Assembly: GCA_001871115.1 (NCBI GenBank)
Contig: MNUR01000085.1
Location: 22,060-86,059, forward strand
Direction of reading: 5' to 3'
Source: Elusimicrobia bacterium CG1_02_56_21
GTDB lineage: Bacteria > Elusimicrobiota > Elusimicrobia > Elusimicrobiales > UBA9959
DNA: 64,000 bases
Below are positions 21,480 to 43,332 of this stretch, piece after piece. The position numbers and the translations under genes are program-made. The notes below the pieces were generated by a model that was not told the DNA's origin, searched no databases, and saw nothing but the letters and a program-made list of their open reading frames with translations. Positions within the stretch are counted from its first letter, which is position 1. Every line of letters begins with the position of its first letter.

Positions 21480-22142
21480 GGCTTTATCTTCGAAAAGGCA
21501 GGAGGGCAGGGTGAAACCGAAGATGATGCCGGCAGCCAGGCCGCCGAAATGGGCCCAGTTGTCCACATAGGGGGTAAGTACGCCCATCAGAAGCTGGAAA
21601 GCCCCCCAGCCCAGCAGAGCGGCGCCTATGCGCCGGTCCCGCACGTGGAAAGAGCCGCGGTAGCGGTAGAAGAAAACTATAGCAGCGCCCATCAGCCCGA
21701 AGATGGCACCGGAAGCGCCTACTGCCGGCTTGGGCTGCATAAAGGCGCTTACAAAAGAAGCGGCCAGGCCGCTGAAAAAGTAGATATAAAGGGCGCGCAT
21801 ACGGCCCCACGCGCGCTCGGAGGCCAGGCCCAGCACATAAAGCGCCAGGCAGTTGCCTAAAAGGTGGCCGTAGCCGCCGTGCAGGAACATCCCCGTGGCC
21901 AGGCGCCAGCTCTGGCCGGAAAACACCTTTTCCCCGTAAATAGCCCCGGCGGCTATTATAGCCGCCTTGCTTTTAAGCGCGCCCGCCTTAAGCTCCCAGG
22001 CGAAAGCCAGGATATTGGCGGCTATAAGCGCCAGCGCAAATACCGGCGTGGCCGACATCCCTTTCTCAAAATCTATCCGGGAAGGCCTGAAAGGGTCCTC
22101 GGCCAGCATATCCGGAGTTATCTTCCTGGGAGGCTCAGGCAT
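21465..22142 (-). CDS. Rhomboid-family intramembrane serine protease
   Basis: Catalytic GASGAIFGLMGA and downstream WAHFGGLAAG, plus LHGGYGHLLGN. Confidence 0.85.
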   Translation of the reverse strand: MPEPPRKITPDMLAEDPFRPSRIDFEKGMSATPVFALALIAANILAFAWELKAGALKSKAAIIAAGAIYGEKVFSGQSWRLATGMFLHGGYGHLLGNCLALYVLGLASERAWGRMRALYIYFFSGLAASFVSAFMQPKPAVGASGAIFGLMGAAIVFFYRYRGSFHVRDRRIGAALLGWGAFQLLMGVLTPYVDNWAHFGGLAAGIIFGFTLPSCLFEDKASVKA

Positions 22143-23047
22143 CAGCGCTTCTCCCCGGTGTCCAGCATTATGCCCAGGGCCAGGGAGATGCGCCGGTCCA
22201 TAGAGCGCAGGGAATCTGAAGACAGATCCAGCACATAGCGGTCAAGTATAGTCAGCTTGCGGTTAAACTCGCCCACCATGTTCCCGGCCCGGTTATATAT
22301 TATGAAGTCGGTGCGGAGCAGTCCGAAGAAACTCCCCAGGAAACGGCGGAGTATGGACAGGATCATCGAGTCCTCTTTAGCTATAAAGCGGGAAGTTCCG
22401 CTGCTGTCCTGGCAGTACCAGCGTTTGCGGAAGATATTATGGAGGCGCTTTTTTACCAGCCTTACCACCGGGGCGCTCTGCGTGTCCAGCACGGTGAAAG
22501 CGGCGGTCAGTATCTGTATCTTGCTGTCCTGCAGTATAGTAAGCAGGATCTCGGCCTTGCTTTCATCGCGATAGACGGTGATATGGCGCTTTTTAGCCAG
22601 CAGCGCCGCCGTAAAATAAATTACGGGGATAGCGCCGAAAACGGCCCAGAATGATAAAAAAACAAGGAGTAAAGGGTCCCCGCCGCCGCTTTTAAGGACG
22701 GCCCGCACTGCGGCCGAGCCGAAAAAATTAAGCAGTCCGGCGAAGATCCCGGCGAAGATTGCGAGCACATTGAGAAAGATATAGCGGGGCCGCTCTACGT
22801 ACATAAGCGGGGCGCCGGCTTCGTCCGCCACGCCGTATTTCTCGCGGATAGCCATATGCTTCTGGTTAAGCAGGAATTTATCGCGGGCGAAGGCGGGGTC
22901 GCCTTCCTGGGCGTGCACCGGGGGAGCGGGAGGAAGTGCGGGGACCTCTATGCCTGCGCCGCACTTGGGGCAGGCCAGCGAGGAACCGGCGTATTCGTCT
23001 TTAAGATTATAGGCCGCGCCGCAGGCGCAGTTTACGTTAACGGACAA
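22142..23047 (-). CDS. Zinc-ribbon protein with a scramblase/LURP-one (tubby C-terminal-like) domain interrupted by TM helices
   Basis: N-terminus CACGAAYNLKDEYAGSSLACPKCG. YxjI/scramblase-like strands (FLLNQKHMAIREKYGVADEAGAPLMYVERP; DFIIYNRAGNMVGEFNRKLTILDRYVLDL). Its stop codon overlaps the rhomboid start by 1 nt. Confidence 0.5.
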   Translation of the reverse strand: MSVNVNCACGAAYNLKDEYAGSSLACPKCGAGIEVPALPPAPPVHAQEGDPAFARDKFLLNQKHMAIREKYGVADEAGAPLMYVERPRYIFLNVLAIFAGIFAGLLNFFGSAAVRAVLKSGGGDPLLLVFLSFWAVFGAIPVIYFTAALLAKKRHITVYRDESKAEILLTILQDSKIQILTAAFTVLDTQSAPVVRLVKKRLHNIFRKRWYCQDSSGTSRFIAKEDSMILSILRRFLGSFFGLLRTDFIIYNRAGNMVGEFNRKLTILDRYVLDLSSDSLRSMDRRISLALGIMLDTGEKR

Positions 23048-23094: not shown

Positions 23095-25029
23095 TTAAAC
23101 AAGCTGTTTTATCCTGGCAACCAGGTCCGTAATAGATTCTGTCATCTTGGAACAATCGATGTAGGTCTCTAAATTAAGTTTCTGCCTGCCGTCCGGAGAG
23201 CACCAGAAAACCCGAAAGAGCAGGCCTTCTTCGGTAAGCTCGGCGTGGGCGCCCAGCGGGGTGGCGCAGCCGCCTCCGAGGGTAGCTAGGAAAAGTCTTT
23301 CGCATTCGGCGCAGATGCGCGTGCGGGCATGGTCCAGCCGGCGGACCAGGCGCATGGTCTGCAGGTCGGCCGTGGCGGCCTCTACGGCTATAATTCCCTG
23401 GCCGGGGGCCGGAACAACTTCATCGGCGGTAAAAACCTGGGTGATCCTGTTTTCAAGGCCCAGGCGCTTCAGGGCGGCGTAAGCCACCACTATTGCGTCG
23501 CACTCGCCGCGGTCCAGCTTGGCCAGGCGGGTGTCCATATTGCCGCGCAGGGGGCAGAACACAGCGCCGGGCTTGAGCCTGGCTATCTGGAAGCGCCTCC
23601 GGGAAGAGCCGGTGGCGATCTTCGCCCCGGGAGGCAAATCCGCCAGGCTGCAGCCGGTGCGGGTAATAATAGCGTCGCGCGGATCCTCGCGCTTTAAATA
23701 AGCCCCTATCCTCAGGCCTTCGGCCAGGTCGCCGGGCAGGTCTTTAAGGGAATGCATGGCCAGCTTTATCCCGCCGTCCAGGAGGTCTCGCTCTATTTCT
23801 TTTACAAAAAGGCCTTTACCGTCCGCGGCTATAAGCTTCTCCACCGGATCGGTCAAAAAAATGTCGCCGCTGGTCTTTATGATCTTCTGGCTTATCTCTA
23901 CGCCCTCTTTCCTCACCAGGTCGCAAATGATATTAGTCTGCGCCAGGGCCAGGCGGGAGCCGCGGGTCCCTATCCTCAGGGGCTCGGTAAAAACCGCGGG
24001 GTCCACGGAGGAATCCTGCGAGAACTTCTCCCAGATCTCCGCGCTCTTGGCGTCTATTATGCCCTGCGCCTTCTTTATTTCCTCCGAGAGCTGGGCCAAA
24101 TTCTCGGCCACTATCCGCTCCAGGTCGTCGATATTGTAAAGGTAAACATTGGAAAGGCTGCCCACCTCGGGCTGGATATTGCGGGGCACCGAAATGTCCA
24201 CCAGGAAAATAGGGTTGCCGTGGCGCAGCGCCATTATCTTCTTCATCCCGTCTTTGGTTATTACGGGCTCGGAAGAAGAGGTGGAAACCAGGACCACGTC
24301 GGCTTCGGAGAGGGCGGTCTCGAGGTTCTCCCAGGGTACGCTCTGCGCCGAAAACTTAGCCGCCAGCTCCTGGCCTTTGGCCCGGGTACGGTTGATAACA
24401 GTAAGGGCGGCTTTCTTTTCAGCGAAGGCCGAGGCGGCGGCTTCGGCCATCTCGCCGGCGCCCAACAGCAGCACCTTGGCTTTGTCCAGGTCGCCGAAGA
24501 TGCGGCCGGCGTACTGCACGGCCACAAAAGCCACCGAGCGGCCGCCCTGGCTTATCTTGGTATTCGCGCGCACATGCTTGCCCACGCCTATAGCGCGCTG
24601 AAAAAGGGTATTGGTCAGGCGGCCGGTGGTTCCCGCGCTTTTGGCCCCGTAGTAGGAATCTTTAAGCTGGCCCAGGATCTCGTTCTCCCCCACCACCATC
24701 GAGTCCAGGCCGCAGGCCACATTGAGCAGATGGTCCATGGCCTCTTTGCCGGTCTTGCTGTACAAATGTCCGCCTGAAGACTTATTGTCGTCGTACTGGG
24801 ACTGGTCGCTTAAGAACCCTATCAGGGCCGTTTCGCAGTCTTTCTTTTTTCCCACGGCGTAAAGGTCCACGCGGTTACAGGTGGAAACCCAAACCAGCTC
24901 TTCCGCCGCCAGCTTGCCGCTGGCCAGAGCCCTGAGCAGCAGGCGCTTGCGCTCGGGGCTTATGCTGAAAGCCTCCCGTGTTTCCACGGTACAGGTTTTA
25001 TGAGAAAGGCCGACAAGAACTAGTTCCAT
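23095..25029 (-). CDS. hemA-hemC: Bifunctional glutamyl-tRNA reductase / hydroxymethylbilane synthase (HemA-HemC fusion)
   Basis: HemA: VSTCNRVDLY and NADPH site LLLGAGEMAE. HemC from about residue 347: LRIGTRGSRLALAQT...KTSGD...GNMDTRL...GGGCATPLG. One uninterrupted 644-aa ORF. Confidence 0.9.
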   Translation of the reverse strand: MELVLVGLSHKTCTVETREAFSISPERKRLLLRALASGKLAAEELVWVSTCNRVDLYAVGKKKDCETALIGFLSDQSQYDDNKSSGGHLYSKTGKEAMDHLLNVACGLDSMVVGENEILGQLKDSYYGAKSAGTTGRLTNTLFQRAIGVGKHVRANTKISQGGRSVAFVAVQYAGRIFGDLDKAKVLLLGAGEMAEAAASAFAEKKAALTVINRTRAKGQELAAKFSAQSVPWENLETALSEADVVLVSTSSSEPVITKDGMKKIMALRHGNPIFLVDISVPRNIQPEVGSLSNVYLYNIDDLERIVAENLAQLSEEIKKAQGIIDAKSAEIWEKFSQDSSVDPAVFTEPLRIGTRGSRLALAQTNIICDLVRKEGVEISQKIIKTSGDIFLTDPVEKLIAADGKGLFVKEIERDLLDGGIKLAMHSLKDLPGDLAEGLRIGAYLKREDPRDAIITRTGCSLADLPPGAKIATGSSRRRFQIARLKPGAVFCPLRGNMDTRLAKLDRGECDAIVVAYAALKRLGLENRITQVFTADEVVPAPGQGIIAVEAATADLQTMRLVRRLDHARTRICAECERLFLATLGGGCATPLGAHAELTEEGLLFRVFWCSPDGRQKLNLETYIDCSKMTESITDLVARIKQLV

Positions 25030-25042
25030 TGTTTAGTATTGC

Positions 25043-25906
25043 TCAGAAGAATTTATGATAAGCGATTACCCGGCTAGACAGCACCAGGGTTGCGGCTATA
25101 AGGATAAAACCGGCCACATTCGCCCAGGCGGCCTTGGTCCCGCGCCAGTCTCCGTACTTCCGGAGCGCCAGGTACAGGCCGTAAACGGCCAGGGTGGCCA
25201 GCGCCCCAAGTTCTTTAACGTCGGAGCCGGGCAGGCGGGAATACTTTACGTAAAGCTGCACGCTGGCAATTACAAAGCCGGTCAGAAAAAGAGGGAAACC
25301 TATTTCCACCAGCCGCCAGATAAGTTTATCCATGTCGCCTATGGAAGGCAGAGCGAAAGCCGCGTCATGGGATTTGCGGGTTCTGAGCTCCCTGTCCGAA
25401 AGCAGCAGGGAGGAACTAGCCCCGAAAGCGTTTATGAACAGGGCGTAGGAAACTATGAACAGGACATTATGCAGGGCTGAAAGGCCGCTCCTGGCCTGAG
25501 ACGAGAAAGCTTCAAGTCCGGGAACCGCGGTAAAAAGCGGGAACGCCAGCGCGATCAGGCTCCAGGGCAGGACGAAAACAAAAGTAAGGCCGGTACCCCT
25601 GCGCAGCTCAAGCAGCAGCAGCAGGGCGTTTACGCAAAGGCCGAGCGCCAGAACCATCCCCCGCGGCGTATTGAGCGGGGTGATATATAAATTCTCGGGG
25701 ACGATCCAGAAATAAAGGGTCAGCGCTATGAAAGCCGCCGCCTGGAGGATAACCGCGCCTCCCAGAAAAGCCAGCGCGGCTTTAAAAACTTTTTCTATCC
25801 GGTTGAAGACAAAGAATATCCCCGTAGCCAGGGCCAGTAGCGTAAAGCCGAAAGCCAGCCTTACGCAGAAGGAAGAGATCGCCGAAAAATCAGGAATATC
25901 GCCCAT
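25043..25906 (-). CDS. CcsA-family / HemX-like cytochrome c assembly membrane protein
   Basis: Polytopic protein with a CcsA-like C-terminal third. It sits next to hemA, as HemX does in hemAXCDBL operons. The ATG at 25906 lies 4 nt from the upstream stop. The longest ORF starts at 25999. Confidence 0.65.
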   Translation of the reverse strand: MGDIPDFSAISSFCVRLAFGFTLLALATGIFFVFNRIEKVFKAALAFLGGAVILQAAAFIALTLYFWIVPENLYITPLNTPRGMVLALGLCVNALLLLLELRRGTGLTFVFVLPWSLIALAFPLFTAVPGLEAFSSQARSGLSALHNVLFIVSYALFINAFGASSSLLLSDRELRTRKSHDAAFALPSIGDMDKLIWRLVEIGFPLFLTGFVIASVQLYVKYSRLPGSDVKELGALATLAVYGLYLALRKYGDWRGTKAAWANVAGFILIAATLVLSSRVIAYHKFF

Positions 25907-25910
25907 TGTA

Positions 25911-26663
25911 TCAGCGCTTGAACGCGGTTTTCCCCAGGATAACTGCGTAGCTGTAGCCGGAGCCGAAATCTTTATCTTTGGCAACGGTGCCGCGGGCAAT
26001 CACGGTCTCGCCCACTTTAACTACTTCGGAGGTGGTGGCCAGCAGGTCGTGAGTGGCGGCTTTAGCGTCGCCGGAACCGTCCTGGATATGCACCCAGTTG
26101 CGGTCCATGATCTCCGTGGACACCTTTACCACTTTCCCCCTGACGGAAACTGTCTTGCCGTCCAGTTCTTTCCGCTTGCTGAAGATTTCGGCGACGGTAT
26201 AACCGTCCTTACCTTCGGCTTTGGAGATCCTGACGGAGAGCTGGCCGGAGACTTTTCCATGGGAAGCCGCAATCTGGGCTGCCTGGGCCATATGCCCGCC
26301 CTGTGCGCTGCCGTCCGAGAATATGATCTTTTTAAAAGTCCGGTTCAGGGTCTTGCTGCGGAAGTCGTTCATTACTATGCCGCCGGCAAAATAAACTTCT
26401 TCGCCTACTTTCACCTTGCGCTGGGCCGTAGCCACCCAGACTGATTCCGTCCCCTGGGCCAGCCTGATATAAGTGTATCCGCCGGAATCCATGGTCTCGG
26501 CCACTTTGCCGGTCACGGTCTCCTGCGCGGCAGCGGGCATCATAGCTTCCGAGTGACCGGCTTCCCGGGCAGGATCCACGGCTTTGTCTTTGGCCCGCAG
26601 GAAAGTCATTACCGCAAAGCCGCAGACCGCGAAAACCACGGCAAAATAAATATTACGGCGCAT
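25911..26663 (-). CDS. Membrane-anchored protein with two OB-fold-like repeats, possibly NrfJ-related
   Basis: TM anchor IYFAVVFAVCGFAVMTF. Two repeats of the type GKVxxxxDSGGYTYIRL...VxxG / GKVVKVSTEIMDRNWVHIQDGSG. AGGAGG-like Shine-Dalgarno before the ATG at 26663. Confidence 0.45.
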   Translation of the reverse strand: MRRNIYFAVVFAVCGFAVMTFLRAKDKAVDPAREAGHSEAMMPAAAQETVTGKVAETMDSGGYTYIRLAQGTESVWVATAQRKVKVGEEVYFAGGIVMNDFRSKTLNRTFKKIIFSDGSAQGGHMAQAAQIAASHGKVSGQLSVRISKAEGKDGYTVAEIFSKRKELDGKTVSVRGKVVKVSTEIMDRNWVHIQDGSGDAKAATHDLLATTSEVVKVGETVIARGTVAKDKDFGSGYSYAVILGKTAFKR

Positions 26664-26695
26664 AAGTTCCTCCGGTGAATAGTACTTCTTAGATC

Positions 26696-27535
26696 TTAGC
26701 TTCTGCCATAACTGTGCAGGCCGGACATCAGGTAATTGACTCCGAAATAGGTGAACATAACCAGGACAAAGCCCCACAGCATAAGGCCGGCGAACTTCTT
26801 GTCTTTCCAGCCCTTGGTCCTGCGCAAATGAATAGCCACCGCGTAATAAAGCCAGGTTATCAAAGACCAGGTTTCTTTAGGGTCCCAGGACCAGTAAGAG
26901 CCCCAGGCCGAGTTGGCCCAGACCGCGCCGGTGATTATTCCCAGGGTAAGCAGCCAGAAACCCACCAGGCAGGCCCGGTAAACAAGAGATTCAAGGCTAA
27001 TTTTCTTCTCATCATGCTTTAACTTGCCCATGAAAGAATAAACCGCGGCCCCGAGAAAAGAAAGCAGCAGAGCGCCGTAACCGGTCATAACGGTGCTGAC
27101 ATGGATAAGCAGCCAGTTGGACTGCAGCGCCGGGACCAGCGGTGAGATATCAGATTCAAGGAAGGAAGCTCCGCCCAGGCTTAGCACAGCGACCAGGGCT
27201 GTCCAGGGGGCCAGCCACTCAATAGCGCGCCCGGGGACGGCCGCGTGCTTATGCCCTTTCCCGGCTTTTTCTACAGCGGAAAAATGCCAGAACAGCAAAT
27301 AGGCGCCTACAAAGGCCCACACCAGGAAAACCATGGATTCGTACTGGTTGGAGAGCGGCGCCCGGCCGGCAATATACCAGCGCGCGCCTATATGATAGGT
27401 GCTGGAAAGAAAACCGGCGAAGAGCGCGAAGATAGAGTATCTGAATTTCCCGGGCATGCTGAAAAGAAAACCGGTCAGCGTAGCCGCCATAGCCACCGCG
27501 TAAAAAACAAAAGAAGCTTTAAGTGATATTTCCAT
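26696..27535 (-). CDS. ccsA: System II cytochrome c biogenesis protein CcsA/ResC
   Basis: WWD motif WGSYWSWDPKETWSLITW and conserved His residues. 1-nt TAATG overlap with ccsB. Confidence 0.9.
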   Translation of the reverse strand: MEISLKASFVFYAVAMAATLTGFLFSMPGKFRYSIFALFAGFLSSTYHIGARWYIAGRAPLSNQYESMVFLVWAFVGAYLLFWHFSAVEKAGKGHKHAAVPGRAIEWLAPWTALVAVLSLGGASFLESDISPLVPALQSNWLLIHVSTVMTGYGALLLSFLGAAVYSFMGKLKHDEKKISLESLVYRACLVGFWLLTLGIITGAVWANSAWGSYWSWDPKETWSLITWLYYAVAIHLRRTKGWKDKKFAGLMLWGFVLVMFTYFGVNYLMSGLHSYGRS

Positions 27536-28752: not shown

Positions 28753-29406
28753 CTACTGATGGCAGCCTTTGCAGGTTTCTTTATAATCTTTCCTGAGCGG
28801 AACCTTTTTATGCCCGCCTATATCGTGACATTTCACGCAGCCCATCATTTCGGCGTGGGCCTTATGCGGCATTGTTTTGCCGGAGATGGCCGCTATGCCG
28901 TTGGAGGCCGGGACCTTGACGGTTTCCGGCGGGACCTTCACGCCCACCGCCTGGTGGCACTGGGTGGCGCAATAGGAACCGGAAAGAAGCGGCTCGGCCG
29001 AGATATCGGTCAGTTCGACGGCAAGGGCGCGGCCGGTTTCGCCCAGCGCGCGGTCGGCTTCGCGCATGATCAGGGAGGCGAGGTATACATTGTGCTCGCC
29101 GTGAGCCGCCGACAGGAACTGCTCCAGCCTGAAGGCGTGGGCCAGTGACAGGCGCGCTTTTTTAAGCTCGACCTCCGGCTTGGAGGACTTGGCCAGTTCG
29201 CCCTTCGCAGCTTCTATCTTGGCAGCCAGCTGCTTCAGAGAGTTCCTAACATCGTCCTTCACATGGCCCCAGGTCCCCTTGAACTTCTCGCCATGGCATT
29301 TCGAGCAGGCCTGCTCCGAGGCTTTCTGGGTATGGCCGCTGTAGCCGCCGGCCTCGGATTTGTCCTGGTAATGGCAGCCTATGCAGTTGACGCCGGCCTT
29401 GAACAT
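28753..29406 (-). CDS. Multihaem c-type cytochrome (4 CxxCH + 1 CxxxCH), apparently 5-prime truncated with no signal peptide
   Basis: CIGCH, CSKCH, CATQCH, CVKCH, CKGCH. The frame stays open upstream to a TAA at 29497-29499 that is followed at once by CH-QDKH, which looks like the tail of another haem motif. Confidence 0.6.
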   Translation of the reverse strand: MFKAGVNCIGCHYQDKSEAGGYSGHTQKASEQACSKCHGEKFKGTWGHVKDDVRNSLKQLAAKIEAAKGELAKSSKPEVELKKARLSLAHAFRLEQFLSAAHGEHNVYLASLIMREADRALGETGRALAVELTDISAEPLLSGSYCATQCHQAVGVKVPPETVKVPASNGIAAISGKTMPHKAHAEMMGCVKCHDIGGHKKVPLRKDYKETCKGCHQ

Positions 29407-29714: not shown

Positions 29715-31826
29715 TTAGAACTTATAGGCCAGCGAGGCGGTCAGCGTGTGGCCGCTACCGGACAGGGAAGAATACTGTTTGTCCTGGTAACGGTCAAAGG
29801 CGTACCGGCCCTTGATAGAGACGTCCCTGGCGTAGGCGTAATCCGCGCCGACGGAAAGAACGTGCAGATAATTATCTACGGCGCCGTCGTTAGTGGAAGC
29901 CAGCTCGGTGGCGATAAGGCCGCTGGCGATATCCCCCTCGGAGCGGCTGAGCGCGTAGCCGCCAGTCAGCTTCAGGTTCTCTTTCACCTGCCAGTCGGTA
30001 TCCATGGCAAGGGTGGTCGTGTTGATCAGGGACTTGGACTTACCGTGGTTAGTGAACAAGAGCGCTGTTTCATAGCGGCGTTTATTGCTGGTATTATAGA
30101 AGTTCTGAAAGTCGCTCTGGTTCCAGTCTACGCTGACGGATGAGTTGGTTTTGGCGGTAAAAGCCGCGCTCAGGGAAGCGCCGGCAGAATGCAGCACATT
30201 GTGAATGTTTTGCGACATGGTATTATTAGTTACCGCCCCGGTCATAGCTGTATAATCAAGCCCGGTATTGCGGGTGCGGCTATAGCTGTAATAAAAACCC
30301 AGCACCTTGCCGCCCGCAGTTACATAACTGGCATCCGTCTTGACATTAAGAGCTTCCTGCGCCTCTGCCACGGTACCCACCTTAGCCGCTTTCTGATAGG
30401 AAGGGGTCAGGTGTAAAACCAGGCCGTCTACAGGCCGCATAGCGCCTTTCAGGAAGACAGTATCGGATTCGGAATCCGCTTTATAAAGGATTCTCTGGGA
30501 AGGGATGCTCACGCCGGCATTGGTACCCAGAAGGAAGCCGCGTTTCTTTGTTTCATGCTTCCAGCCGGCGCCAAGGCTGTTTTTAGAACCGGCGGGCCGC
30601 AGCGTGGCGTTAAATCCATACTCCGCAGACTTAATGGAAGTCAGTTTCAGGTCCAAAGATTCCTTGTTGGTTGGGTCGTTAAACAAACCGGCGGCGTACC
30701 GGGTAGAATTATTCCACCTGTTTGCGGTTTTCACATAAGCTTCTGTCTCTACGGAGGGGATAGCCAGGCACTTGCCGCTGAGAAAGAAGTTATTGGTGGC
30801 TATCTCGCCTTTTTTATAGTTATTGTCTGTCTGTTTGGTAGCGAAAGAATCCTGGGAAAGCACAGACATCCCGTAGCCGGCCGCCAGGGAAGAATTCTTA
30901 AAAGTCTTGGAGAGCCTTAAAGAATTGGAGTTCAAAGTGCTGTCCTGGATGAAGTGCAGGGGTTTGCTCTGGTTCGCGGCGGTCATCGCGGGATAATACG
31001 CGTCTTTGAAATCCCCGATCGTATAGCCCCTTGCCTGATTTTCGAACTTCTCGAAAGACGCGTCGTAAGCTAATTGGAACCAGTTAAGAGGAGAGGCTGT
31101 AAAGTTAGCTGAAGTCCGGCCCATGAGCTCGTTGACGGGCTTATCGTAACCATGCCAGCGCCTGAGAGGAAAACCACTTTGGAAATCTCCCCCCCCGGAT
31201 ACCCAAGTAGCATAGGTGTTCCCAGTTCTGTTATAGCCTTCATGCTTAACCGAGACGGACGGAATATCGCGCAGCGGCCCGGATTTGGATTTAATCCCTA
31301 CGCCGTAATTAGTGCGGTCCAGCCTGAGAGGGGAACCGCCGGAATCATTGTTAAAGCGCGCCACATAGCCGTCGCCCGTGCCGGTATAAGCGGCGTCCGT
31401 GCCGCCGGTAACATTATTGGCCCTATTGCGGTAATCCAGGCCGACCGAGGCCGAGCGGTACTGAGAATAGAACCCGGAAACATTCACCAGCTCCGAGTCC
31501 ATCCGCACCATGCCGGAGTGGGTGTAAAAACCATAACCCTTCCGCTGAATTGCGATAGAATCTTTGCCGTTGGAATAGGAAAGATCCAGGTCCAGGTCCA
31601 GGTAGGCGCCCGAAACACCGCGGTCCGACCATCCTTTCTGGTAGTCGTAGCGCTGCAGGAACCGGGTATCAGCCGCGTTCCCGCCGCCCACATATTCATA
31701 TATAGACAGCTTGGGCGCCAGTGTGCCGTTGAACCAGCCTTTGCCGGCGGCGCCTTCCTGTGCGTTCACTATAGCCGGGCAGAACAGCGCGGCTAGCAGA
31801 AGATTTAGCAGATTTTTGGATTTCAT
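29715..31826 (-). CDS. MtrB/PioB-like large outer-membrane beta-barrel (porin partner of the decahaem cytochrome)
   Basis: 703 aa, signal peptide MKSKNLLNLLLAALFCPAIVNA, Tyr/Gly/Asn-rich alternating strands, C-terminal SLAYKF. It lies 38 nt downstream of the decahaem gene, the same order as mtrAB/pioAB/mtoAB. Confidence 0.65.
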   Translation of the reverse strand: MKSKNLLNLLLAALFCPAIVNAQEGAAGKGWFNGTLAPKLSIYEYVGGGNAADTRFLQRYDYQKGWSDRGVSGAYLDLDLDLSYSNGKDSIAIQRKGYGFYTHSGMVRMDSELVNVSGFYSQYRSASVGLDYRNRANNVTGGTDAAYTGTGDGYVARFNNDSGGSPLRLDRTNYGVGIKSKSGPLRDIPSVSVKHEGYNRTGNTYATWVSGGGDFQSGFPLRRWHGYDKPVNELMGRTSANFTASPLNWFQLAYDASFEKFENQARGYTIGDFKDAYYPAMTAANQSKPLHFIQDSTLNSNSLRLSKTFKNSSLAAGYGMSVLSQDSFATKQTDNNYKKGEIATNNFFLSGKCLAIPSVETEAYVKTANRWNNSTRYAAGLFNDPTNKESLDLKLTSIKSAEYGFNATLRPAGSKNSLGAGWKHETKKRGFLLGTNAGVSIPSQRILYKADSESDTVFLKGAMRPVDGLVLHLTPSYQKAAKVGTVAEAQEALNVKTDASYVTAGGKVLGFYYSYSRTRNTGLDYTAMTGAVTNNTMSQNIHNVLHSAGASLSAAFTAKTNSSVSVDWNQSDFQNFYNTSNKRRYETALLFTNHGKSKSLINTTTLAMDTDWQVKENLKLTGGYALSRSEGDIASGLIATELASTNDGAVDNYLHVLSVGADYAYARDVSIKGRYAFDRYQDKQYSSLSGSGHTLTASLAYKF

Positions 31827-31864: not shown

Positions 31865-32704
31865 TTAGTAGCGCAGGTGCTGGTCGAAAGCGCTGCCGTG
31901 TATTCCGCCGTGGCAGGCGGTGCAGTTCCTGAGCGCGGCGCCGGTAATACGCGCGCCGGCTGCCGCGCCGACAGCGTGCCGGTTGTCAGCCAGGGAATGG
32001 CAGCGCAGGCACAGAGCGGGCTGGGCAACCGTCAGCAGTTTCTTTATGGGAGAGCCGTGGGGATTATGGCAGGTAAGGCAGTCTTCGGTAACCGGCGGAT
32101 GCTCCATGGTATAGGGTCCGCGCACCGCCTGGTGGCACTTGGTGCAGGTCTCTGTCTTGGCAGTCAGGGCCTGTTTTTTATCGGTATGGGGGTCGTGGCA
32201 GTCCACGCAGGAGATTCCGCCTTCCTTTAAGGGATGGTGGGAAAACATATTGAAGCGGGCGGTCACTTCCTTATGGCAGGAAGCGCATAAGGCGGAATTG
32301 GCGTCCTTGTATTTTGCCGTGTCCGCGCCCTTTACGACCTTGGGCGTATGGTTGCTGTGACAGGCGGCGCAATTGAGGCCGGCCTTTTTATGGTCGGAGA
32401 ACGCCCAGTTCATCCGGTTGGCGTCTTTTACATGACAGACCTGGCAGGCGGCCGCGCCGGGCCTTGCGGGTTTTGTTTCCGGGCCGGGGTTGGCTAAATG
32501 TTTTTCAGTGCCGCTGTGGCACTTCGAGCAATCCTGCTTGCCGTGCACGCCCCTGGCGTGGGAAGACGAGGCTGCGTCATGGCAGGCTGAACACGCCGCA
32601 TTGGCTGTCGTGTCGGCGCGGGCCGCTGGCGGGTTCGAGAGTATTCCTACAGCGAAAGCCAGCAGGGCAATGACCCCACAGGCCTTTACGTTAATCCTAT
32701 TCAT
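31865..32704 (-). CDS. Periplasmic decahaem c-type cytochrome, MtrA/DmsE/PioA-like
   Basis: Signal peptide plus ten CxxCH motifs in 279 aa (CSACH, CSKCH, CQVCH, CAACH, CASCH, CVDCH, CTKCH, CLTCH, CLRCH, CTACH). The C-terminal CTACHGGIHGS resembles the MtrA family. Confidence 0.85.
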   Translation of the reverse strand: MNRINVKACGVIALLAFAVGILSNPPAARADTTANAACSACHDAASSSHARGVHGKQDCSKCHSGTEKHLANPGPETKPARPGAAACQVCHVKDANRMNWAFSDHKKAGLNCAACHSNHTPKVVKGADTAKYKDANSALCASCHKEVTARFNMFSHHPLKEGGISCVDCHDPHTDKKQALTAKTETCTKCHQAVRGPYTMEHPPVTEDCLTCHNPHGSPIKKLLTVAQPALCLRCHSLADNRHAVGAAAGARITGAALRNCTACHGGIHGSAFDQHLRY

Positions 32705-33882: not shown

Positions 33883-35058
33883 CTAAACTGCCGGCTTTGC
33901 CGAGATCTCCTCATCAGTAATATAGCAAGCGGGATCGGCTTCCCACATATCGCCGGTAGCGCGAAGCGCGCGCACCCGGAAACCTCCGCCACAAACGTCT
34001 TTCCAGGCACAGGTTCCGCAGCGGCCCTTTAATAGAGGAAGGCGGTTCCTGAGGCCGGCCAGTACGGGGTGTTTCCCCTCCCCCCACACTTTACTGAAGG
34101 GGGTCTGGCGGATATTGGCTATGGTAAGGTCCTGCCAAAACTGGTCCGGGTGTATATTCCCCTTCCAGTCTATATTGGAAAGGGTGACGCCGGAGCCGTT
34201 GGCCCCGCCGCCGTTCCACTGCAGGATCTCGAGAACGGCCGCGGCGCGCTTCGGGTCCTTCTTGAGCAGCTTAAGGTAAAGATAGACCGCGTCGCAGGGA
34301 TTGTCCACGGTGAGGATCTCGGTGGGCTTGGGCTTTTTCGCCAGGATCTCCGCGCGGCGGATGATGGTCTCCATGGCCTTCCGGGATTCGGCGTGGGTGA
34401 GATCGTCGCCGCTGATTTCCCCGCCCCGGCCTGAATAGACCAAATGGTAGAAACAGGCCCTGGGGATCTCCTCGCCTTCTATAAAGTCGAAGATCTTATC
34501 CAGGTTCTCCACATTATGCTTGGTCAGGGTAAAGCGCAGGCCGGTCTTCTGCCCTACCTCTTTAAGGTTGCGCAGGCCTTTGAGCGCGCCCTCGAAAGCC
34601 CCGTCCACGCCGCGGAATTTATCGTTTATCGGGCCGATCCCGTCGAAAGAGATGCCGACATAAGTGATGCCCAGGGACTTGATCTTTTTGGCCATGTCCG
34701 GGGTTATCAGGGTCCCGTTAGTGGAGATAGTAACCCTTATGCCTTTGCCGGTGGCGTAAGAAGCCAGCTCGAAGAAATCCGGGCGGGTAAGCGGCTCGCC
34801 GCCGGAGAAAAGCAGGGCCGAGACGCCCATTTGTCCGACGTCGTCTATCATCACTTTAGCTTCCGCGGTGGTAAGTTCGTCGGTGTCCAGTTCCCCGGTG
34901 GAATTCGCGTAGCAGTGCACGCATTTCAGATTGCAGCGCTTGGTGCTGCTCCAGACCACGATGGGCCTGCGGGCGCCCGCGCCCTCTTTATTGCCGCCGT
35001 AGCGCAATTTCACTGAGGGAGTATCGATGCTGCACCACATTTTTGTTATATCAAGCAT
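33883..35058 (-). CDS. NirJ/AhbC/AhbD-family radical SAM enzyme with a SPASM domain (alternative haem biosynthesis)
   Basis: CNLKCVHCY radical SAM motif. C-terminal CGTCAWKDVCGGGFRVRA. Sits among ahbAB and other haem genes. Confidence 0.75.
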   Translation of the reverse strand: MLDITKMWCSIDTPSVKLRYGGNKEGAGARRPIVVWSSTKRCNLKCVHCYANSTGELDTDELTTAEAKVMIDDVGQMGVSALLFSGGEPLTRPDFFELASYATGKGIRVTISTNGTLITPDMAKKIKSLGITYVGISFDGIGPINDKFRGVDGAFEGALKGLRNLKEVGQKTGLRFTLTKHNVENLDKIFDFIEGEEIPRACFYHLVYSGRGGEISGDDLTHAESRKAMETIIRRAEILAKKPKPTEILTVDNPCDAVYLYLKLLKKDPKRAAAVLEILQWNGGGANGSGVTLSNIDWKGNIHPDQFWQDLTIANIRQTPFSKVWGEGKHPVLAGLRNRLPLLKGRCGTCAWKDVCGGGFRVRALRATGDMWEADPACYITDEEISAKPAV

Positions 35059-35094
35059 ATTTATATTCCTATTTATGTAAAACGCTGTAGTCTT

Positions 35095-36198: not shown

Positions 36199-36231
36199 GG
36201 TGGTGTCCTTCAAGTAGCGTATCAAAGTCTG

Positions 36232-39531: not shown

Positions 39532-40118
39532 ATGGGAAAGAAAGTCTTTATCTTGAACATTGTTTTCACCGGGAAGGAATAACATTTCTCCACCCCGGGC
39601 AGCCGCCTGAAAACGGCTATCTGCCGGTTCACCCCGGCCATGGTTCCCCGCACTCCTACGGTAAACCAAAGGTTCATTTCCCCCGCCCTTTCATAACAAT
39701 GGGTAACTCCGGGGAATTTAGAAATTTCTTTAGCTACGGCCGCCAGCCGGGAGGGTTTCACCCGCGCACCGGCGAGCGTGGAAGAAAAACCCAGCTTGCG
39801 GGTTTCAAAGCTGCCGCCTATCCTGCGGACCACGCCTTTTTTCTTATAAGTTTTAAGCACTTTAAGGACATCGGCCCCCGTCACGCCTATCCCGGCGCCC
39901 AGGGCTTCAAAAGGGCGGCTGCAGGCGGGAATATCCGTCTGGGCCGCGTCCAGGACCAGTTTTTCTATTCTTGTAGCCCGAATTCCGCTTGCGGAATTCC
40001 CCGCGCAGCGGGCGGAAGGCCCAGCGCTATGCGCGCCCGGCCCGACGGGGCGTATGCCTCCCGCAGGGCGCCCGCTATGCGGGCGGTAAACTTCACCAGA
40101 AGTTTTCAGGCTAGCCAT
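39528..40118 (-). CDS. Sirohaem decarboxylase subunit (AhbA/AhbB family) with a low-complexity N-terminal extension
   Basis: LVLDAAQTDIPACSRPFEALGAGIGVTGADVLKVLKTYKKKGVVRRIG and THCYERA. The only ATG overlaps the hemB end by 13 nt. Confidence 0.7.
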   Translation of the reverse strand: MASLKTSGEVYRPHSGRPAGGIRPVGPGAHSAGPSARCAGNSASGIRATRIEKLVLDAAQTDIPACSRPFEALGAGIGVTGADVLKVLKTYKKKGVVRRIGGSFETRKLGFSSTLAGARVKPSRLAAVAKEISKFPGVTHCYERAGEMNLWFTVGVRGTMAGVNRQIAVFRRLPGVEKCYSFPVKTMFKIKTFFPI

Positions 40119-41092
40119 TTGGCGGCGTCCTTGGCGTGGTAGGTTATTATCATGTCGGCCCCGGCCCTTTTAATAGAGGTCAGGATCTCCAGGACCATGG
40201 CTTTCTCGTTTATCAGGCCTTTCTGCGCCGCCGCCTTCACCATCGAATACTCGCCGCTCACATTGTAAGCCGCGGTCGGGAACTGGAATTTTTCTTTTAC
40301 AGCGCGCAGGATGTCCAGGTAGGCCAGGGCCGGCTTCACCATTACGATATCGGCGCCCTGCCTCACGTCGAGCTCCACCTCGCGCAGCGCCTCGAGATAA
40401 TTGGCCGGGTCCATCTGGTAGGTTTTCCTGTCCCCGAACTGCGGGGCGGACTGGGCCGCTTCGCGGAAAGGCCCGTAGAAAGCGGAAGAATATTTGGCGG
40501 CGTAGGAAAGTATGCCTACGTCCTGGAAACCTTTCCCGTCCAGGGCTTTCCTTATCGCCCCGACGCGGTTGTCCATCATATCGGAAGGAGCGACCAGGTC
40601 GGCGCCGGCTTCGGCGTGCACCAAAGCTTCTTTGACCAGCAGCTCGAGCGTGCGGTCATTGTCCACCAGCATTTCGCCGGCGCGGTTCTTCCTGACGACG
40701 CCGCAATGCCCGTGGCTGGTGTATTCGCAAAGGCAGACGTCGGTCATCACGGCGATATCCGGCACGGACTTCTTTATCAGCCTGACGGCCTCCGGCACGG
40801 GGCCCCCGGGGTCATAGGCTTCTTTCCCGAGCGGGTCTTTTTTAGAGGGCAGCCCGAAAAGTATCAGCGAGTTTATGCCGAGGGCGCGGCATTTCGCGGC
40901 TTCGGCCGCCGCCTCGTCCACGGACAGGTGGAAGCAGCCGGGCATGGAAGAGATCTCTTTTTTGTATTTTTTACCGGGGACCACGAAAAGCGGGTAGACG
41001 AAATTGTCGGCGGTAACGCGGGTTTCCCTGAACATGTCGCGGGCCCATTTCAGGTTCCTGAGTCTGCGAGGGCGGGCTGAATCGGAAAGCAT
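40106..41092 (-). CDS. hemB: Porphobilinogen synthase (delta-aminolevulinate dehydratase), Zn type
   Basis: CLCEYTSHGHCG zinc site, SDMMDNRVGAIR, MVKPALAYLD. Confidence 0.95.
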   Translation of the reverse strand: MLSDSARPRRLRNLKWARDMFRETRVTADNFVYPLFVVPGKKYKKEISSMPGCFHLSVDEAAAEAAKCRALGINSLILFGLPSKKDPLGKEAYDPGGPVPEAVRLIKKSVPDIAVMTDVCLCEYTSHGHCGVVRKNRAGEMLVDNDRTLELLVKEALVHAEAGADLVAPSDMMDNRVGAIRKALDGKGFQDVGILSYAAKYSSAFYGPFREAAQSAPQFGDRKTYQMDPANYLEALREVELDVRQGADIVMVKPALAYLDILRAVKEKFQFPTAAYNVSGEYSMVKAAAQKGLINEKAMVLEILTSIKRAGADMIITYHAKDAAKWLA

Positions 41093-41261: not shown

Positions 41262-42776
41262 CTAACGGGCTTTCTTAAAATATCCCTGCGCCGCTTCCAC
41301 GAGGCCCGGGATAGTGTAATCCTTCGCTTCGAAATCGGGTTTAAAGCCCTCCGATTTCATGGTGCCGGAAGTGATGGGGCCGATGCTGCCCATGGCCACG
41401 CCTTTAAGAAGTTTCTTGTCGGCGCCCTTGAAGCTCTCCATAAAACCGGTAACCGTGGAAGAGCTGGTAAAGGTGACAAGGTTTACCTCCCCTGCCTGCA
41501 GCAGCTTCTTCAGTTCCGGGAAATTGCCCCTGTCGGGAACGGTATTATAGGTGGGGATCTCGGTTACCAGGGCGCCGGCTTTTTTAAGGCCCGCATTAAG
41601 CATATCCCTGGCCATAGCGGCCCGGGGCAGGAGTATTTTCTGACCTTTCACTTTACCCAGCGCTTTCAGAATTGACTCGGAGATATACTTTTCCGGGACC
41701 AGGTCGGCATTTATGCCCCTGGCGCGCAGCGCCTCCGCCGTAGCGGGCCCGATAGCGGCCACTTTCGCGCTCCCGAAGCGGCGCGCGTCCAGGCCGAGCT
41801 TATTAAGCCGGTTAAAGAAAACTTCCACGCCGTTGGCGCTGGTAAAGATTACCCAATTGTAGCCGCCCAGCCCTTTTATTTCTTTATCCAGTGCGGAAAA
41901 AGTTTTAAGAGGTTCTATTCTTATTGAAGGGAAAACAATAACTTCGGCGCCCAGGCCGGTGAATTGCTGAGCAAGGGCGCTGGCCTGCTCCCGGGAGCGG
42001 GTCACCACTATTTTCCTGCCGAAAAGCGGCCTTTTCTCGAACCAGGCCAGCTGCCCGCGCAGGCCGGCCACGCCGCCCACCACGGTGACGGCGGGGGCTT
42101 TTATGTCCGCCTTGCGGGCGAGTTCGGCTATAGTAGAAAGGGTCCCGGAAAGGGATCTCTGCCGGGGCGTGGTCCCGTTGGAAACGATAGCGGCCGGGGT
42201 GGAGCCTTTCAGCCCCGCGGCCATGAGCTTGGCGGAAATGACGTCGAGGCTTGAAACGCCCATCAGGAAAACCAAAGTCCCGCCGCCGGAAGCCAGGCTG
42301 TCCCAGGGGAGTTTAAGCTCGCCATTCTTCTGGATATGCCCGGTAAGGAAGGTCACCATAGGCGCGAAAGAGCGGTCCGTGACCGGGATGCCGGCGTAAG
42401 CCGGCGCGGCCACGGCCGAGCTGACCCCGGGAACTATTTCAAAAGGTATTTTAGCGGCCGCGAGGTCCCTGGCCTCTTCCCCGCCGCGTCCGAAGATGAA
42501 AGGGTCCCCGCCTTTAAGGCGCACTACCGTGCCGCCTTTTTTGCCGAGGCGGACCAGGAGGGCGTTGATATCCTCCTGCTCCATGGCGTGTACCGCGCCG
42601 CGCTTTCCCACATAAAATTTTTTGGCTCTCTCCGGCGCCATGTTCACAAAATCGGGGTTGGACAGGGCGTCGTAAACCACATAGTCGGCCTTGCGCAGGC
42701 ACTCCGCGCCTTTGATCGTCAGCAGGCCGGGATCGCCGGGGCCGCCGCCCACCAGGTACACTTTGCCTTTCGTCAT
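41262..42776 (-). CDS. cobA-hemD: Uroporphyrinogen-III C-methyltransferase / uroporphyrinogen-III synthase fusion (CobA-HemD)
   Basis: N-terminal SUMT motif GKVYLVGGGPGDPGLLTIKG...VVRLKGGDPFIFGRGGEE. The C-terminal roughly 250 aa are HemD-like. Confidence 0.9.
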   Translation of the reverse strand: MTKGKVYLVGGGPGDPGLLTIKGAECLRKADYVVYDALSNPDFVNMAPERAKKFYVGKRGAVHAMEQEDINALLVRLGKKGGTVVRLKGGDPFIFGRGGEEARDLAAAKIPFEIVPGVSSAVAAPAYAGIPVTDRSFAPMVTFLTGHIQKNGELKLPWDSLASGGGTLVFLMGVSSLDVISAKLMAAGLKGSTPAAIVSNGTTPRQRSLSGTLSTIAELARKADIKAPAVTVVGGVAGLRGQLAWFEKRPLFGRKIVVTRSREQASALAQQFTGLGAEVIVFPSIRIEPLKTFSALDKEIKGLGGYNWVIFTSANGVEVFFNRLNKLGLDARRFGSAKVAAIGPATAEALRARGINADLVPEKYISESILKALGKVKGQKILLPRAAMARDMLNAGLKKAGALVTEIPTYNTVPDRGNFPELKKLLQAGEVNLVTFTSSSTVTGFMESFKGADKKLLKGVAMGSIGPITSGTMKSEGFKPDFEAKDYTIPGLVEAAQGYFKKAR

Positions 42777-43324: not shown

Positions 43325-43332
43325 AAAGGCTT

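What the first reader, a model, noticed from the sequence alone, without database searches (positions are those of the whole stretch)
23095..25029. Single polypeptide fusing glutamyl-tRNA reductase (HemA) to hydroxymethylbilane synthase (HemC)
One uninterrupted 644-aa ORF carries the HemA catalytic Cys motif (VSTCNRVDLY) and NADPH site. After a shortened dimerisation region (junction near 24000) it continues into a complete HemC with the cofactor Cys (GGGCATPLG). These are steps 1 and 4 of tetrapyrrole synthesis. HemC-HemD and CobA-HemD fusions are familiar to me, and the latter occurs in this window. A HemA-HemC fusion is not, and it skips the two intermediate enzymes.
Basis: partly seen in the sequence, partly recalled or inferred. 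Interest (0 to 1): 0.6.

Follow-up and report, generated by a model that had tools for sequence, protein, structure and literature searches.

The report
Natural HemA–HemC fused haem enzyme
The window really encodes one protein that joins the first and fourth enzymes of haem-precursor synthesis, a fusion conserved across a group of uncultured Elusimicrobia; it is genuine and apparently undescribed, but it arose simply from two neighbouring genes and similar fusions occur in other bacteria.

Summary
Window 23095–25029 (minus strand) is one 644-aa ORF. Residues 4–346 are a glutamyl-tRNA reductase (HemA) with the catalytic Cys51 and the NADPH site, but with no dimerisation domain at all. Residues 351–644 are a complete three-domain hydroxymethylbilane synthase (HemC) with the cofactor Cys588.

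It is not an assembly artefact:
- The same architecture occurs in about 23 protein clusters from independent assemblies and in 12 Elusimicrobia species genomes.
- The junction has no indels and evolves under purifying selection (dN/dS about 0.21).

The nearest relatives carry a short, dimerisation-domain-less hemA whose stop overlaps or abuts the start of hemC. So the truncation came first, and the fusion needed only loss of a stop codon.

About 40 other HemA–HemC fusion clusters exist elsewhere, including Fusobacteriaceae and WOR-3. They are phylogenetically separate, so the fusion has arisen repeatedly. JGI already auto-names some of them as bifunctional. I found no paper describing the fusion.

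The most likely reading is a bifunctional enzyme with two independent active sites, fixed because the genes were adjacent. It cannot channel substrate, because HemL and HemB act in between. This is a real but modest new variant. Interest 0.3.

The parts
23095..25029 (-). Whole hemA-hemC fusion ORF, 644 aa (ATG at 25027-25029, TAA at 23095-23097)
   Evidence: 100% identical protein P0001 in ENA
24559..25014 (-). GluTR N-terminal catalytic domain (residues 6-157), including the catalytic Cys51 codon at 24877-24879 in the motif STCNR
   Evidence: Pfam PF05201, E=4.8e-44. Aligns to 1gpj residues 3-321, with Cys51 at 1gpj position 48. Invariant in 16 family members
24112..24510 (-). GluTR NADPH-binding Rossmann domain (residues 174-306), with the invariant motif LLGAGE at 188-193
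   Evidence: Pfam PF01488, E=2.7e-41; invariant columns
23980..24111 (-). Remnant of the GluTR spinal helix (helices 300-313 and 315-340) plus the 10-residue linker (341-350). No dimerisation domain follows it
   Evidence: AF2 secondary structure, pLDDT about 90 at the linker. No PF00745 hit. No indels and dN/dS 0.21-0.22. No conserved internal start codon
23356..23979 (-). HmbS domains 1 and 2 (residues 351-558), with R356, S358, K429, D430, R477, R478, R495 and R501 matching E. coli R11, S13, K83, D84, R131, R132, R149 and R155
   Evidence: Pfam PF01379, E=1.2e-69; residue-by-residue alignment to 1ah5/1pda
23161..23316 (-). HmbS C-terminal domain 3 (residues 572-623), with the dipyrromethane-cofactor Cys588 (codon 23266-23268), equivalent to E. 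coli Cys242
   Evidence: Pfam PF03900; alignment; Foldseek 1pda, target TM-score 0.91, rmsd 1.5 A
25043..25999 (-). HemX/CcsA-like membrane protein gene (Cytochrom_C_asm), ending 13 nt upstream of the fusion start. The same neighbour is conserved in relatives
   Evidence: the same gene precedes the fusion in L001-L004 and precedes the short stand-alone hemA in L083-L085
36366..37652 (-). hemL (glutamate-1-semialdehyde aminomutase), the step-2 enzyme that acts between the two fused activities
   Evidence: TIGR00713, 613 bits against a cut-off of 527
40106..41092 (-). hemB (porphobilinogen synthase), the step-3 enzyme that acts between the two fused activities
   Evidence: NF006762, 499 bits against a cut-off of 297; Pfam ALAD
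41262..42776 (-). cobA-hemD fusion (uroporphyrinogen-III synthase plus C-methyltransferase), which takes the HemC product
   Evidence: Pfam TP_methylase plus HEM4; NCBIfam

Best explanation
This is a genuine bifunctional enzyme of the C5 tetrapyrrole pathway. It is a glutamyl-tRNA reductase that had already lost its C-terminal dimerisation domain, joined in frame to the hydroxymethylbilane synthase encoded immediately downstream. The fusion arose once in an Elusimicrobia lineage, by loss of the hemA stop codon in a translationally coupled short-hemA/hemC gene pair, and has been kept under purifying selection since. The two active sites work independently. The N-terminal half reduces Glu-tRNA(Glu) to glutamate-1-semialdehyde through a Cys51 thioester and NADPH. 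The C-terminal half polymerises four porphobilinogen units on the dipyrromethane cofactor at Cys588. Separate HemL and HemB proteins, encoded in the same gene cluster, supply the two steps in between, so no direct substrate channelling is involved. The inferred benefit is obligate 1:1 co-expression and shared turnover of the pathway's controlling enzyme with HemC, and probably structural capping of the truncated, presumably monomeric GluTR by a rigidly attached HemC. What is shown: the architecture, the intact catalytic residues, conservation, selection, and the evolutionary route. What is inferred: enzymatic activity of both halves, the monomeric state, and the selective benefit.
For: Both halves exceed the curated equivalog cut-offs. 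The catalytic and cofactor residues match solved GluTR and HmbS structures one for one and are invariant across 16 family members. The AF2 model is confident (pLDDT 89.8, pTM 0.83) with an ordered linker. Its HemC half superposes on 1pda (target TM-score 0.91) and its HemA half on 4n7r (0.76). The fusion is present in about 23 clusters at 90% identity from ENA, NCBI, JGI and Logan, and in 12 Elusimicrobia species genomes, always as one ORF. dN/dS is 0.14 for the HemA core, 0.21 for the linker and 0.19 for HemC, with no indels across residues 301-360. No conserved internal start codon would give a separate HemC. The closest stand-alone HemAs are 361-363 aa, lack PF00745, and are followed by hemC with overlapping or abutting stop and start. 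The fusion clade is monophyletic in 100/100 bootstraps, and its nearest outgroup is a short stand-alone HemA in 90/100. hemL, hemB, cobA-hemD, sirC and ahbABCD-like genes lie in the same 20-kb minus-strand cluster, and the window has no second hemA or hemC.
Against: There are no biochemical data for either half. Canonical GluTRs are obligate homodimers through the missing domain (PMC4726326), and I found no report showing that a GluTR lacking it is active. Only 64 kb of this genome was visible, so a second, canonical hemA or hemC elsewhere cannot be excluded. The proposed benefits (stoichiometry and stabilisation) are untested; the fusion could be nearly neutral. The inter-domain geometry rests on pTM and pLDDT only, because no PAE or coordinates were available.
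Confidence: 0.75

Rival explanations
1. The fusion reflects functional coupling, not just gene adjacency. HemC takes the structural place of the lost dimerisation domain and tethers GluTR into a tetrapyrrole metabolon with HemL and HemB, or it couples HemC substrate or product occupancy allosterically to GluTR activity as feedback from step 4 to step 1.
For: The linker length is invariant in 14 genomes down to 61% identity and is under purifying selection (dN/dS 0.21). The linker is ordered (pLDDT about 90), and pTM is 0.83 for the whole two-enzyme chain. HemA-HemC fusions arose independently in several lineages. Transient complexes of early tetrapyrrole enzymes have been proposed (PMC4726326).
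Against: hemA-hemC adjacency with overlapping stop and start is very common (25 loci from other phyla), so recurrent fusion is expected from mutational opportunity alone. Fusions are rare, at about 40 of roughly 10^4 HemA-like clusters. Most other fusions keep the dimerisation domain, so HemC is not generally a replacement for it. No interface or co-variation was demonstrated here.
Confidence: 0.15
2. One half is catalytically dead and serves as a regulatory or scaffolding module. For example, a HemC-like PBG sensor could control GluTR, or a GluTR-like tRNA/NADPH-binding module could be attached to an active HemC, with the real second enzyme encoded elsewhere in the genome.
For: The GluTR half lacks a domain thought essential for the canonical dimer. 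Only 64 kb of the genome could be inspected.
Against: Every catalytic, cofactor and substrate-binding residue checked is conserved and invariant in the family. Both halves evolve under strong purifying selection similar to each other. Both pass equivalog cut-offs. No other hemA or hemC lies in the haem gene cluster. The stand-alone short HemAs found here sit in hem operons with a separate hemC and no second hemA in the stretches inspected.
Confidence: 0.07
3. It is an assembly or sequencing artefact: a frameshift or lost stop codon in this one assembly merged two adjacent genes.
For: Adjacent, overlapping hemA and hemC genes are common, and a single indel could merge them. Some other database 'fusions' are singletons, and at least one (P0026) shows a frameshifted tail.
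Against: The same in-frame junction is found in 14 independently assembled genomes and in about 23 protein clusters from four data sources, with 61-100% identity, synonymous divergence (pS) of about 0.5-0.6, dN/dS of 0.21 at the linker and no indel. Identical proteins were recovered from separate ENA and JGI samples.
Confidence: 0.01

Closest known systems
Canonical glutamyl-tRNA reductase (HemA/GtrR; M. kandleri 1GPJ, Arabidopsis 4N7R, E. coli HemA)
   Same: It has the same catalytic domain with the nucleophilic Cys in the TCNR motif, the same NADPH Rossmann domain and the start of the spinal helix. It scores 344 bits on TIGR01035, and the target TM-score to 4n7r is 0.76.
   Different: It lacks the distal spinal helix and the whole dimerisation domain (PF00745), which makes the V/Y-shaped homodimer and binds FLU in plants. 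It instead continues into HemC.
Stand-alone short HemA (355-368 aa) of Elusimicrobia and relatives (P0030-P0032, P0040 and others); NCBIfam also has a 338-position glutamyl-tRNA reductase model (NF001909/PRK00676), which I recall is the chlamydial short form
   Same: It has the same two-domain GluTR without the dimerisation domain. These proteins are its closest relatives (42-48% identity) and share the upstream hemX-like gene and a hemC immediately downstream.
   Different: They end in a tail of about 25 residues and a stop codon that overlaps or abuts the hemC start. In the window that stop is gone, and 17 residues after Trp333 lead into HemC.
Hydroxymethylbilane synthase / porphobilinogen deaminase (HemC; E. 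coli 1PDA/1AH5)
   Same: It has all three domains, the cofactor Cys and the Arg/Asp/Lys active-site set. The rmsd to 1pda is 1.5 A over 295 columns.
   Different: It has no free N-terminus. It is attached through a 10-residue ordered linker to GluTR.
Other HemA-HemC fusions in public data (Fusobacteriaceae cluster P0145, WOR-3 P0172, P0122, P0128; long forms P0024, P0025, P0125 and others)
   Same: They have the same domain order, HemA then HemC. Some also lack the dimerisation domain (613-653 aa). JGI names some 'glutamyl-tRNA reductase/hydroxymethylbilane synthase'.
   Different: They are only 31-40% identical and fall outside the Elusimicrobia clade in the HemA tree, further away than stand-alone HemAs, so they have independent origins. 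Most keep the dimerisation domain (700-790 aa).
Known fused tetrapyrrole enzymes: CobA-HemD (also in this window), CysG, HemH-HemQ of C. acnes, archaeal HemA-HemB and HemC-CobA-HemD
   Same: These are bifunctional polypeptides made from neighbouring genes of the same pathway (PMC11237513; PMC13564367).
   Different: CobA-HemD, CysG and HemH-HemQ join consecutive steps, so they can hand over an intermediate. HemA-HemC joins steps 1 and 4, with two free-standing enzymes in between. No HemA-HemC fusion is listed in those surveys.

Membership tests
Glutamyl-tRNA reductase (HemA, TIGR01035; Pfam GlutR_N + Shikimate_DH + GlutR_dimer) | Whole-protein score above the curated equivalog cut-off | tested here: met
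   TIGR01035 scores 344.4 bits against a cut-off of 209.55, over residues 4-346
Glutamyl-tRNA reductase (HemA, TIGR01035; Pfam GlutR_N + Shikimate_DH + GlutR_dimer) | N-terminal catalytic domain with the nucleophilic Cys (Cys48 in M. kandleri, Cys50 in E. coli, from my own knowledge of those enzymes) | tested here: met
   PF05201, E=4.8e-44. Cys51 in STCNR aligns with position 48 of 1gpj, and the deposited chain reads Ser there. It is invariant in the family
Glutamyl-tRNA reductase (HemA, TIGR01035; Pfam GlutR_N + Shikimate_DH + GlutR_dimer) | NADPH-binding Rossmann domain with a glycine-rich loop | tested here: met
   PF01488, E=2.7e-41, residues 174-306. G190, A191, G192 and E193 are invariant
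Glutamyl-tRNA reductase (HemA, TIGR01035; Pfam GlutR_N + Shikimate_DH + GlutR_dimer) | C-terminal dimerisation domain (PF00745) forming the V/Y-shaped homodimer | tested here: not met
   PF00745 gives no hit at E<=0.01. The hemA profile is matched only to position 342 of 416. The 1gpj alignment ends at residue 321 of 404. It is therefore a member of the short-HemA subgroup, not of the canonical three-domain form
Glutamyl-tRNA reductase (HemA, TIGR01035; Pfam GlutR_N + Shikimate_DH + GlutR_dimer) | NADPH-dependent reduction of Glu-tRNA(Glu) to glutamate-1-semialdehyde | not testable with these tools
   This needs an enzyme assay or hemA complementation. Indirect support comes from hemL in the same cluster and dN/dS of 0.14
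Hydroxymethylbilane synthase (HemC, TIGR00212; Pfam Porphobil_deam + Porphobil_deamC) | Whole-protein score above the curated equivalog cut-off | tested here: met
   TIGR00212 scores 298.5 bits against a cut-off of 164, over residues 351-625
Hydroxymethylbilane synthase (HemC, TIGR00212; Pfam Porphobil_deam + Porphobil_deamC) | Three-domain fold (two periplasmic-binding-protein-like domains plus the C-terminal domain) | tested here: met
   PF01379 and PF03900 both hit. The AF2 model compared with 1pda gives target TM-score 0.91 and rmsd 1.5 A over 295 columns
Hydroxymethylbilane synthase (HemC, TIGR00212; Pfam Porphobil_deam + Porphobil_deamC) | Cofactor-attachment Cys (E. coli Cys242) in domain 3 | tested here: met
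   Cys588 in GGGC aligns with E. coli position 242 and is invariant
Hydroxymethylbilane synthase (HemC, TIGR00212; Pfam Porphobil_deam + Porphobil_deamC) | Catalytic Asp84 and the substrate- and cofactor-binding residues Arg11, Arg131, Arg132, Arg149 and Arg155 (E. coli numbering) | tested here: met
   D430, R356, R477, R478, R495 and R501 align with them. All are invariant except R495, which is at least 90% conserved
Hydroxymethylbilane synthase (HemC, TIGR00212; Pfam Porphobil_deam + Porphobil_deamC) | Polymerisation of four porphobilinogen units to hydroxymethylbilane | not testable with these tools
   This needs an enzyme assay or hemC complementation
Substrate-channelling fusion of consecutive pathway steps (such as CobA-HemD or CysG) | The fused activities are consecutive, so the product of one is the substrate of the other | tested here: not met
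   GluTR is step 1 and HmbS is step 4. HemL (36366-37652) and HemB (40106-41092) are separate genes

The most novel reading that the evidence does not exclude
HemC is more than a passenger. In this clade it has become the structural partner of a monomeric GluTR that lacks its dimerisation domain. It is rigidly docked through a length-invariant linker, and it either nucleates a GluTR-HemL-HemB-HmbS metabolon or transmits the loading state of HmbS back to the rate-controlling first enzyme. The independent recurrence of HemA-HemC fusions would then be a Rosetta-stone signal that GluTR and HmbS interact physically in other organisms too.
Probability: 0.12. Interest if true: 0.55.

Novelty: new variant of a known kind. 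Interest (0 to 1): 0.3.

Why it matters
GluTR is the controlling enzyme of tetrapyrrole synthesis, and the textbook model is an obligate V-shaped homodimer that cradles a GSAM dimer. This clade, and a wider set of short HemAs, dispenses with the dimerisation domain altogether, and here HemC is attached in its place. That provides a natural test of whether dimerisation and the proposed GluTR-GSAM channel are really required. The fusion is also a ready-made single-chain construct that could interest groups engineering haem or ALA pathways. Finally, it is a clear worked example of how translationally coupled neighbouring genes become fusions of non-consecutive pathway steps. The practical caveat is that it is found only in uncultured organisms and has no biochemistry, and the simplest reading, fusion driven by gene adjacency, is unremarkable.

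Tried and rejected
1. Artefact hypothesis: rejected by cross-assembly conservation and codon-level selection at the junction.
2. Fusion widespread across phyla: the GTDB scan returned many non-Elusimicrobia loci that matched both halves. ORF analysis showed that all 25 of them are separate adjacent genes.
3. Single origin for all HemA-HemC fusions: rejected by the HemA-half NJ tree and distances. This is a simple distance tree, and its deep branches are weakly supported: the grouping of the fusion clade with P0168 gets 50%, and with 17 short HemAs 11%.
4. Internal translation start producing a separate HemC: no conserved ATG, GTG or TTG in the 26 codons before GTRGS.
5. Residual dimerisation domain: none detected.
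6. Literature: six searches and look-ups found no description of a HemA-HemC fusion. Dailey et al. 2017 (MMBR) is not held, so a mention there cannot be excluded.
7. The AFDB50 fold search, which would have shown UniProt entries with this architecture, was unavailable.
9. The HemC-half homology search did not list the fusion family itself. I take this as a quirk of the word-index candidate selection. It did show that the nearest stand-alone HemCs are 43-51% identical, and some of them are Elusimicrobia.
10. The plus-strand ORF 42957-43520 that I first picked as a SirC candidate has no family. The real SirC-like gene is on the minus strand at about 42776-43264.
Full report
**Observation**

Window 23095..25029 holds one uninterrupted 644-aa ORF on the minus strand, with ATG at 25027-25029 and TAA at 23095-23097.
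- Pfam places GlutR_N at residues 6-157, the NADPH-binding Shikimate_DH domain at 174-306, Porphobil_deam at 351-558 and Porphobil_deamC at 572-623. The GluTR dimerisation domain PF00745 gives no hit.
- NCBIfam's hemA equivalog TIGR01035 scores 344 bits (cut-off 209.55) over residues 4-346, but only up to profile position 342 of 416.
- The hemC equivalog TIGR00212 scores 298 bits (cut-off 164) over residues 351-625.

One amendment: the dimerisation region is absent, not shortened.

**Catalytic integrity**

Aligned to E. coli HmbS (1ah5/1pda), the C-terminal half keeps these residues:
- R356, S358, K429 and D430, matching E. coli R11, S13, K83 and D84;
- R477, R478, R495 and R501, matching R131, R132, R149 and R155;
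- Cys588, matching the cofactor Cys242.

Aligned to M. kandleri GluTR (1gpj), Cys51 of the STCNR motif falls on position 48, the nucleophile. The match runs only to 1gpj residue 321 of 404. All of these residues are invariant, or at least 90% conserved, in 16 family members.

An AlphaFold2 model built on a 101-sequence alignment is confident (mean pLDDT 89.8, pTM 0.83). It shows helices 300-313 and 315-340, which are about half of the GluTR spinal helix. An ordered 10-residue loop (pLDDT about 90) follows, and then the first HemC strand at 351-355. Foldseek superposes the HemC half on 1pda (target TM-score 0.91, rmsd 1.5 Å) and the HemA half on Arabidopsis GluTR 4n7r (target TM-score 0.76). 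No solved chain covers both halves.

**Real or artefact?**

The 5.8-billion-protein search found an identical protein (P0001) and 22 further clusters with the same architecture. They are 610-711 aa and 61-85% identical, and they come from ENA, NCBI, JGI and Logan. Those with names are Elusimicrobia MAGs, and JGI calls one 'glutamyl-tRNA reductase/hydroxymethylbilane synthase'. Identical fusion proteins were recovered from separate ENA and JGI samples.

A scan of GTDB species genomes returned 12 Elusimicrobia loci. Each has one continuous ORF, with only 4-5 residues between the HemA and HemC matches.

Across 14 genomes there is no indel in residues 301-360. Nei-Gojobori dN/dS is 0.14 for the HemA core, 0.21 for linker residues 334-350 and 0.19 for HemC, at a synonymous divergence of about 0.5-0.6. 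No start codon is conserved in the 26 codons before GTRGS. The junction is therefore translated, constrained and old. The frameshift or merged-gene explanation is excluded for the clade.

**Origin**

The nearest non-fusion relatives (42-48% identity) are stand-alone HemAs of 355-368 aa that also lack PF00745. Two were examined in context. The gene order is hemX-like (Cytochrom_C_asm), then short hemA, then hemC. In L083/L084 cobA-hemD follows hemC. The hemA stop overlaps the hemC start by 11 nt in L083 and abuts it (TAATG) in L085. The same hemX-like gene sits 13 nt upstream of the fusion in the window (25043-25999) and in distant family members. So loss of the dimerisation domain came first, and the fusion needed only loss of one stop codon in a translationally coupled pair.

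**Distribution and independence**

The exhaustive HMMER scan of 1.84 billion 50%-identity representatives collapses the window's family into a single cluster (P0023). It also lists roughly 40 other representatives that carry both halves at 31-40% identity. Most are 700-1013 aa and keep the dimerisation domain. A few (P0122, P0128, P0142, P0145, P0172, P0221) are short, at 613-653 aa.

Named examples are a 12-member Fusobacteriaceae cluster, most of whose full-length members were seen on several contigs, and a WOR-3 protein.

In a neighbour-joining tree of the HemA half (73 sequences, 343 columns, 100 bootstraps):
- the Elusimicrobia fusion clade is monophyletic in 100/100 replicates;
- its nearest outside relative is a short stand-alone HemA in 90/100;
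- every other fusion is further away (distance 1.2-2.1) than ordinary stand-alone HemAs (0.90-1.08).

HemA-HemC fusion has therefore arisen repeatedly. This is expected, because hemA-hemC adjacency is very common: all 25 non-Elusimicrobia loci in the GTDB scan that matched both halves were separate adjacent ORFs.

**Pathway context**

The fusion is the last gene of a run of about 20 kb of minus-strand genes:
- a SirC-like gene (about 42776-43264);
- cobA-hemD (41262-42776);
- hemB (40106-41092);
- ahbA and ahbB (39064-40118);
- hemL (36366-37652);
- AhbD-like and AhbC/NirJ1-like radical-SAM enzymes (33883-36225);
- a Crp-family regulator;
- multihaem cytochromes;
- ResB and CcsA;
- the hemX-like gene.

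This is the siroheme-dependent route to haem, feeding cytochrome c maturation. tblastn finds no second hemA or hemC in the window. The two enzymes that act between the fused activities are free-standing, so the fusion cannot channel a substrate directly.

**Mechanism**

The best-supported reading (confidence about 0.75) is a bifunctional enzyme with two independent active sites, created by gene adjacency and retained under selection. Likely benefits are fixed 1:1 co-expression, shared turnover, and stabilisation of a truncated, presumably monomeric GluTR. These benefits are inferred.

A more interesting rival (about 0.15) is real functional coupling, in which HemC acts as a structural replacement for the dimerisation domain, a metabolon scaffold or a feedback sensor. 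The invariant linker length, the ordered linker, the high pTM and the recurrence of the fusion hint at this. Common adjacency, the rarity of fusions, and retention of the dimerisation domain in most other fusions argue against it.

A dead-domain reading (about 0.07) is disfavoured by the intact residues and by equal purifying selection on both halves. An artefact (about 0.01) is excluded.

**Comparison with what is known**

Canonical GluTR is a three-domain homodimer whose C-terminal domain mediates dimerisation, and it is proposed to pass GSA to a GSAM dimer (PMC4726326). The N-terminal half of the window's protein belongs to the short, two-domain subgroup and fails that one defining feature. 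The C-terminal half is an ordinary HmbS.

Known fused tetrapyrrole enzymes mostly join consecutive steps. They include CobA-HemD, CysG, HemH-HemQ, archaeal HemA-HemB and archaeal HemC-CobA-HemD (PMC11237513, PMC13564367). Neither survey lists HemA-HemC. The string 'HemA-HemC' does not occur in the 8 million papers searched. Dailey et al. 2017 could not be read.

**Verdict**

The finding is real and conserved across a clade, and I found no description of it in the papers searched. The architecture is already present, and partly auto-annotated, in public databases. It has arisen several times, and its origin is mechanistically simple. I rate it a new variant of a known kind, with interest 0.3. 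The part most worth an experiment is the GluTR without a dimerisation domain, with HemC attached as a natural probe of whether the canonical dimer and the GSAM channel are needed.

**Limits**
- There is no biochemistry for either half.
- Only 64 kb of the genome was visible.
- The GTDB scan used two peptide patterns and is not exhaustive.
- The tree is a simple distance tree with weak deep nodes.
- The inter-domain geometry rests on pTM and pLDDT, without PAE or coordinates.
- AFDB50 was unavailable.

Noticed in passing
window 37684-39024 (-): A 446-aa protein with an N-terminal cytochrome bd subunit-I-like region and a C-terminal cytochrome c (Cytochrome_CBB3) domain, lying between hemL and ahbB in the haem cluster. 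This is an unusual combination.
   Followed up: no
window 29715-31826 (-): A 703-aa ORF with no Pfam family, flanked by multihaem c-type cytochromes (28753-29406 and 31865-32704). It could be the barrel component of a porin-cytochrome conduit.
   Followed up: no
window 22142-23047 (-) and 25911-26777 (-): Two ORFs (301 aa and 288 aa) with no Pfam family; the 301-aa ORF also has no NCBIfam hit. They lie just downstream of the fusion and just upstream of the hemX-like gene. The 301-aa protein starts with paired CxxC-like motifs.
   Followed up: no
window ~42776-43264 (-): A SirC-like precorrin-2 dehydrogenase, 56% identical to the gene beside cobA-hemD in L003. A longer plus-strand ORF with no family (42957-43520) overlaps it and would mislead a longest-ORF gene call.
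   Followed up: partly
L014 and L015 (both from MAG JAHJSU01): One Elusimicrobia MAG carries two different fusion genes on two contigs, 80% and 74% identical to the window's protein. This is either a true duplication or a mixed-strain bin.
   Followed up: no
P0002, P0014, P0016, P0017, P0018 (alignment A1, columns about 76-157 and 530-552): Some family members carry lineage-specific inserts of 15-70 residues, in a loop after HemA residue 75-83 and after HemC residue 458. The rest of the protein is collinear.
   Followed up: no
P0121 (1013 aa), P0123 (975 aa): These proteins have both HemA and HemC halves plus 250-300 extra residues. They may be triple fusions, for example with HemD. They were seen in NCBI, JGI and Logan assemblies.
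   Followed up: no
P0026 (870 aa): The C-terminal 250 or so residues are Arg/Pro-rich nonsense that begins inside the HemC domain. This is most likely a frameshift in that assembly, and it is a caution that some database 'fusions' are artefacts.
   Followed up: partly
L083-L085; P0030-P0045, P0155-P0267: Stand-alone GluTRs of about 327-369 aa without a dimerisation domain are numerous among the closest relatives: 10 of the top 120 hits and about 20 of the top 150 representatives. The canonical homodimer architecture is therefore not universal.
   Followed up: partly
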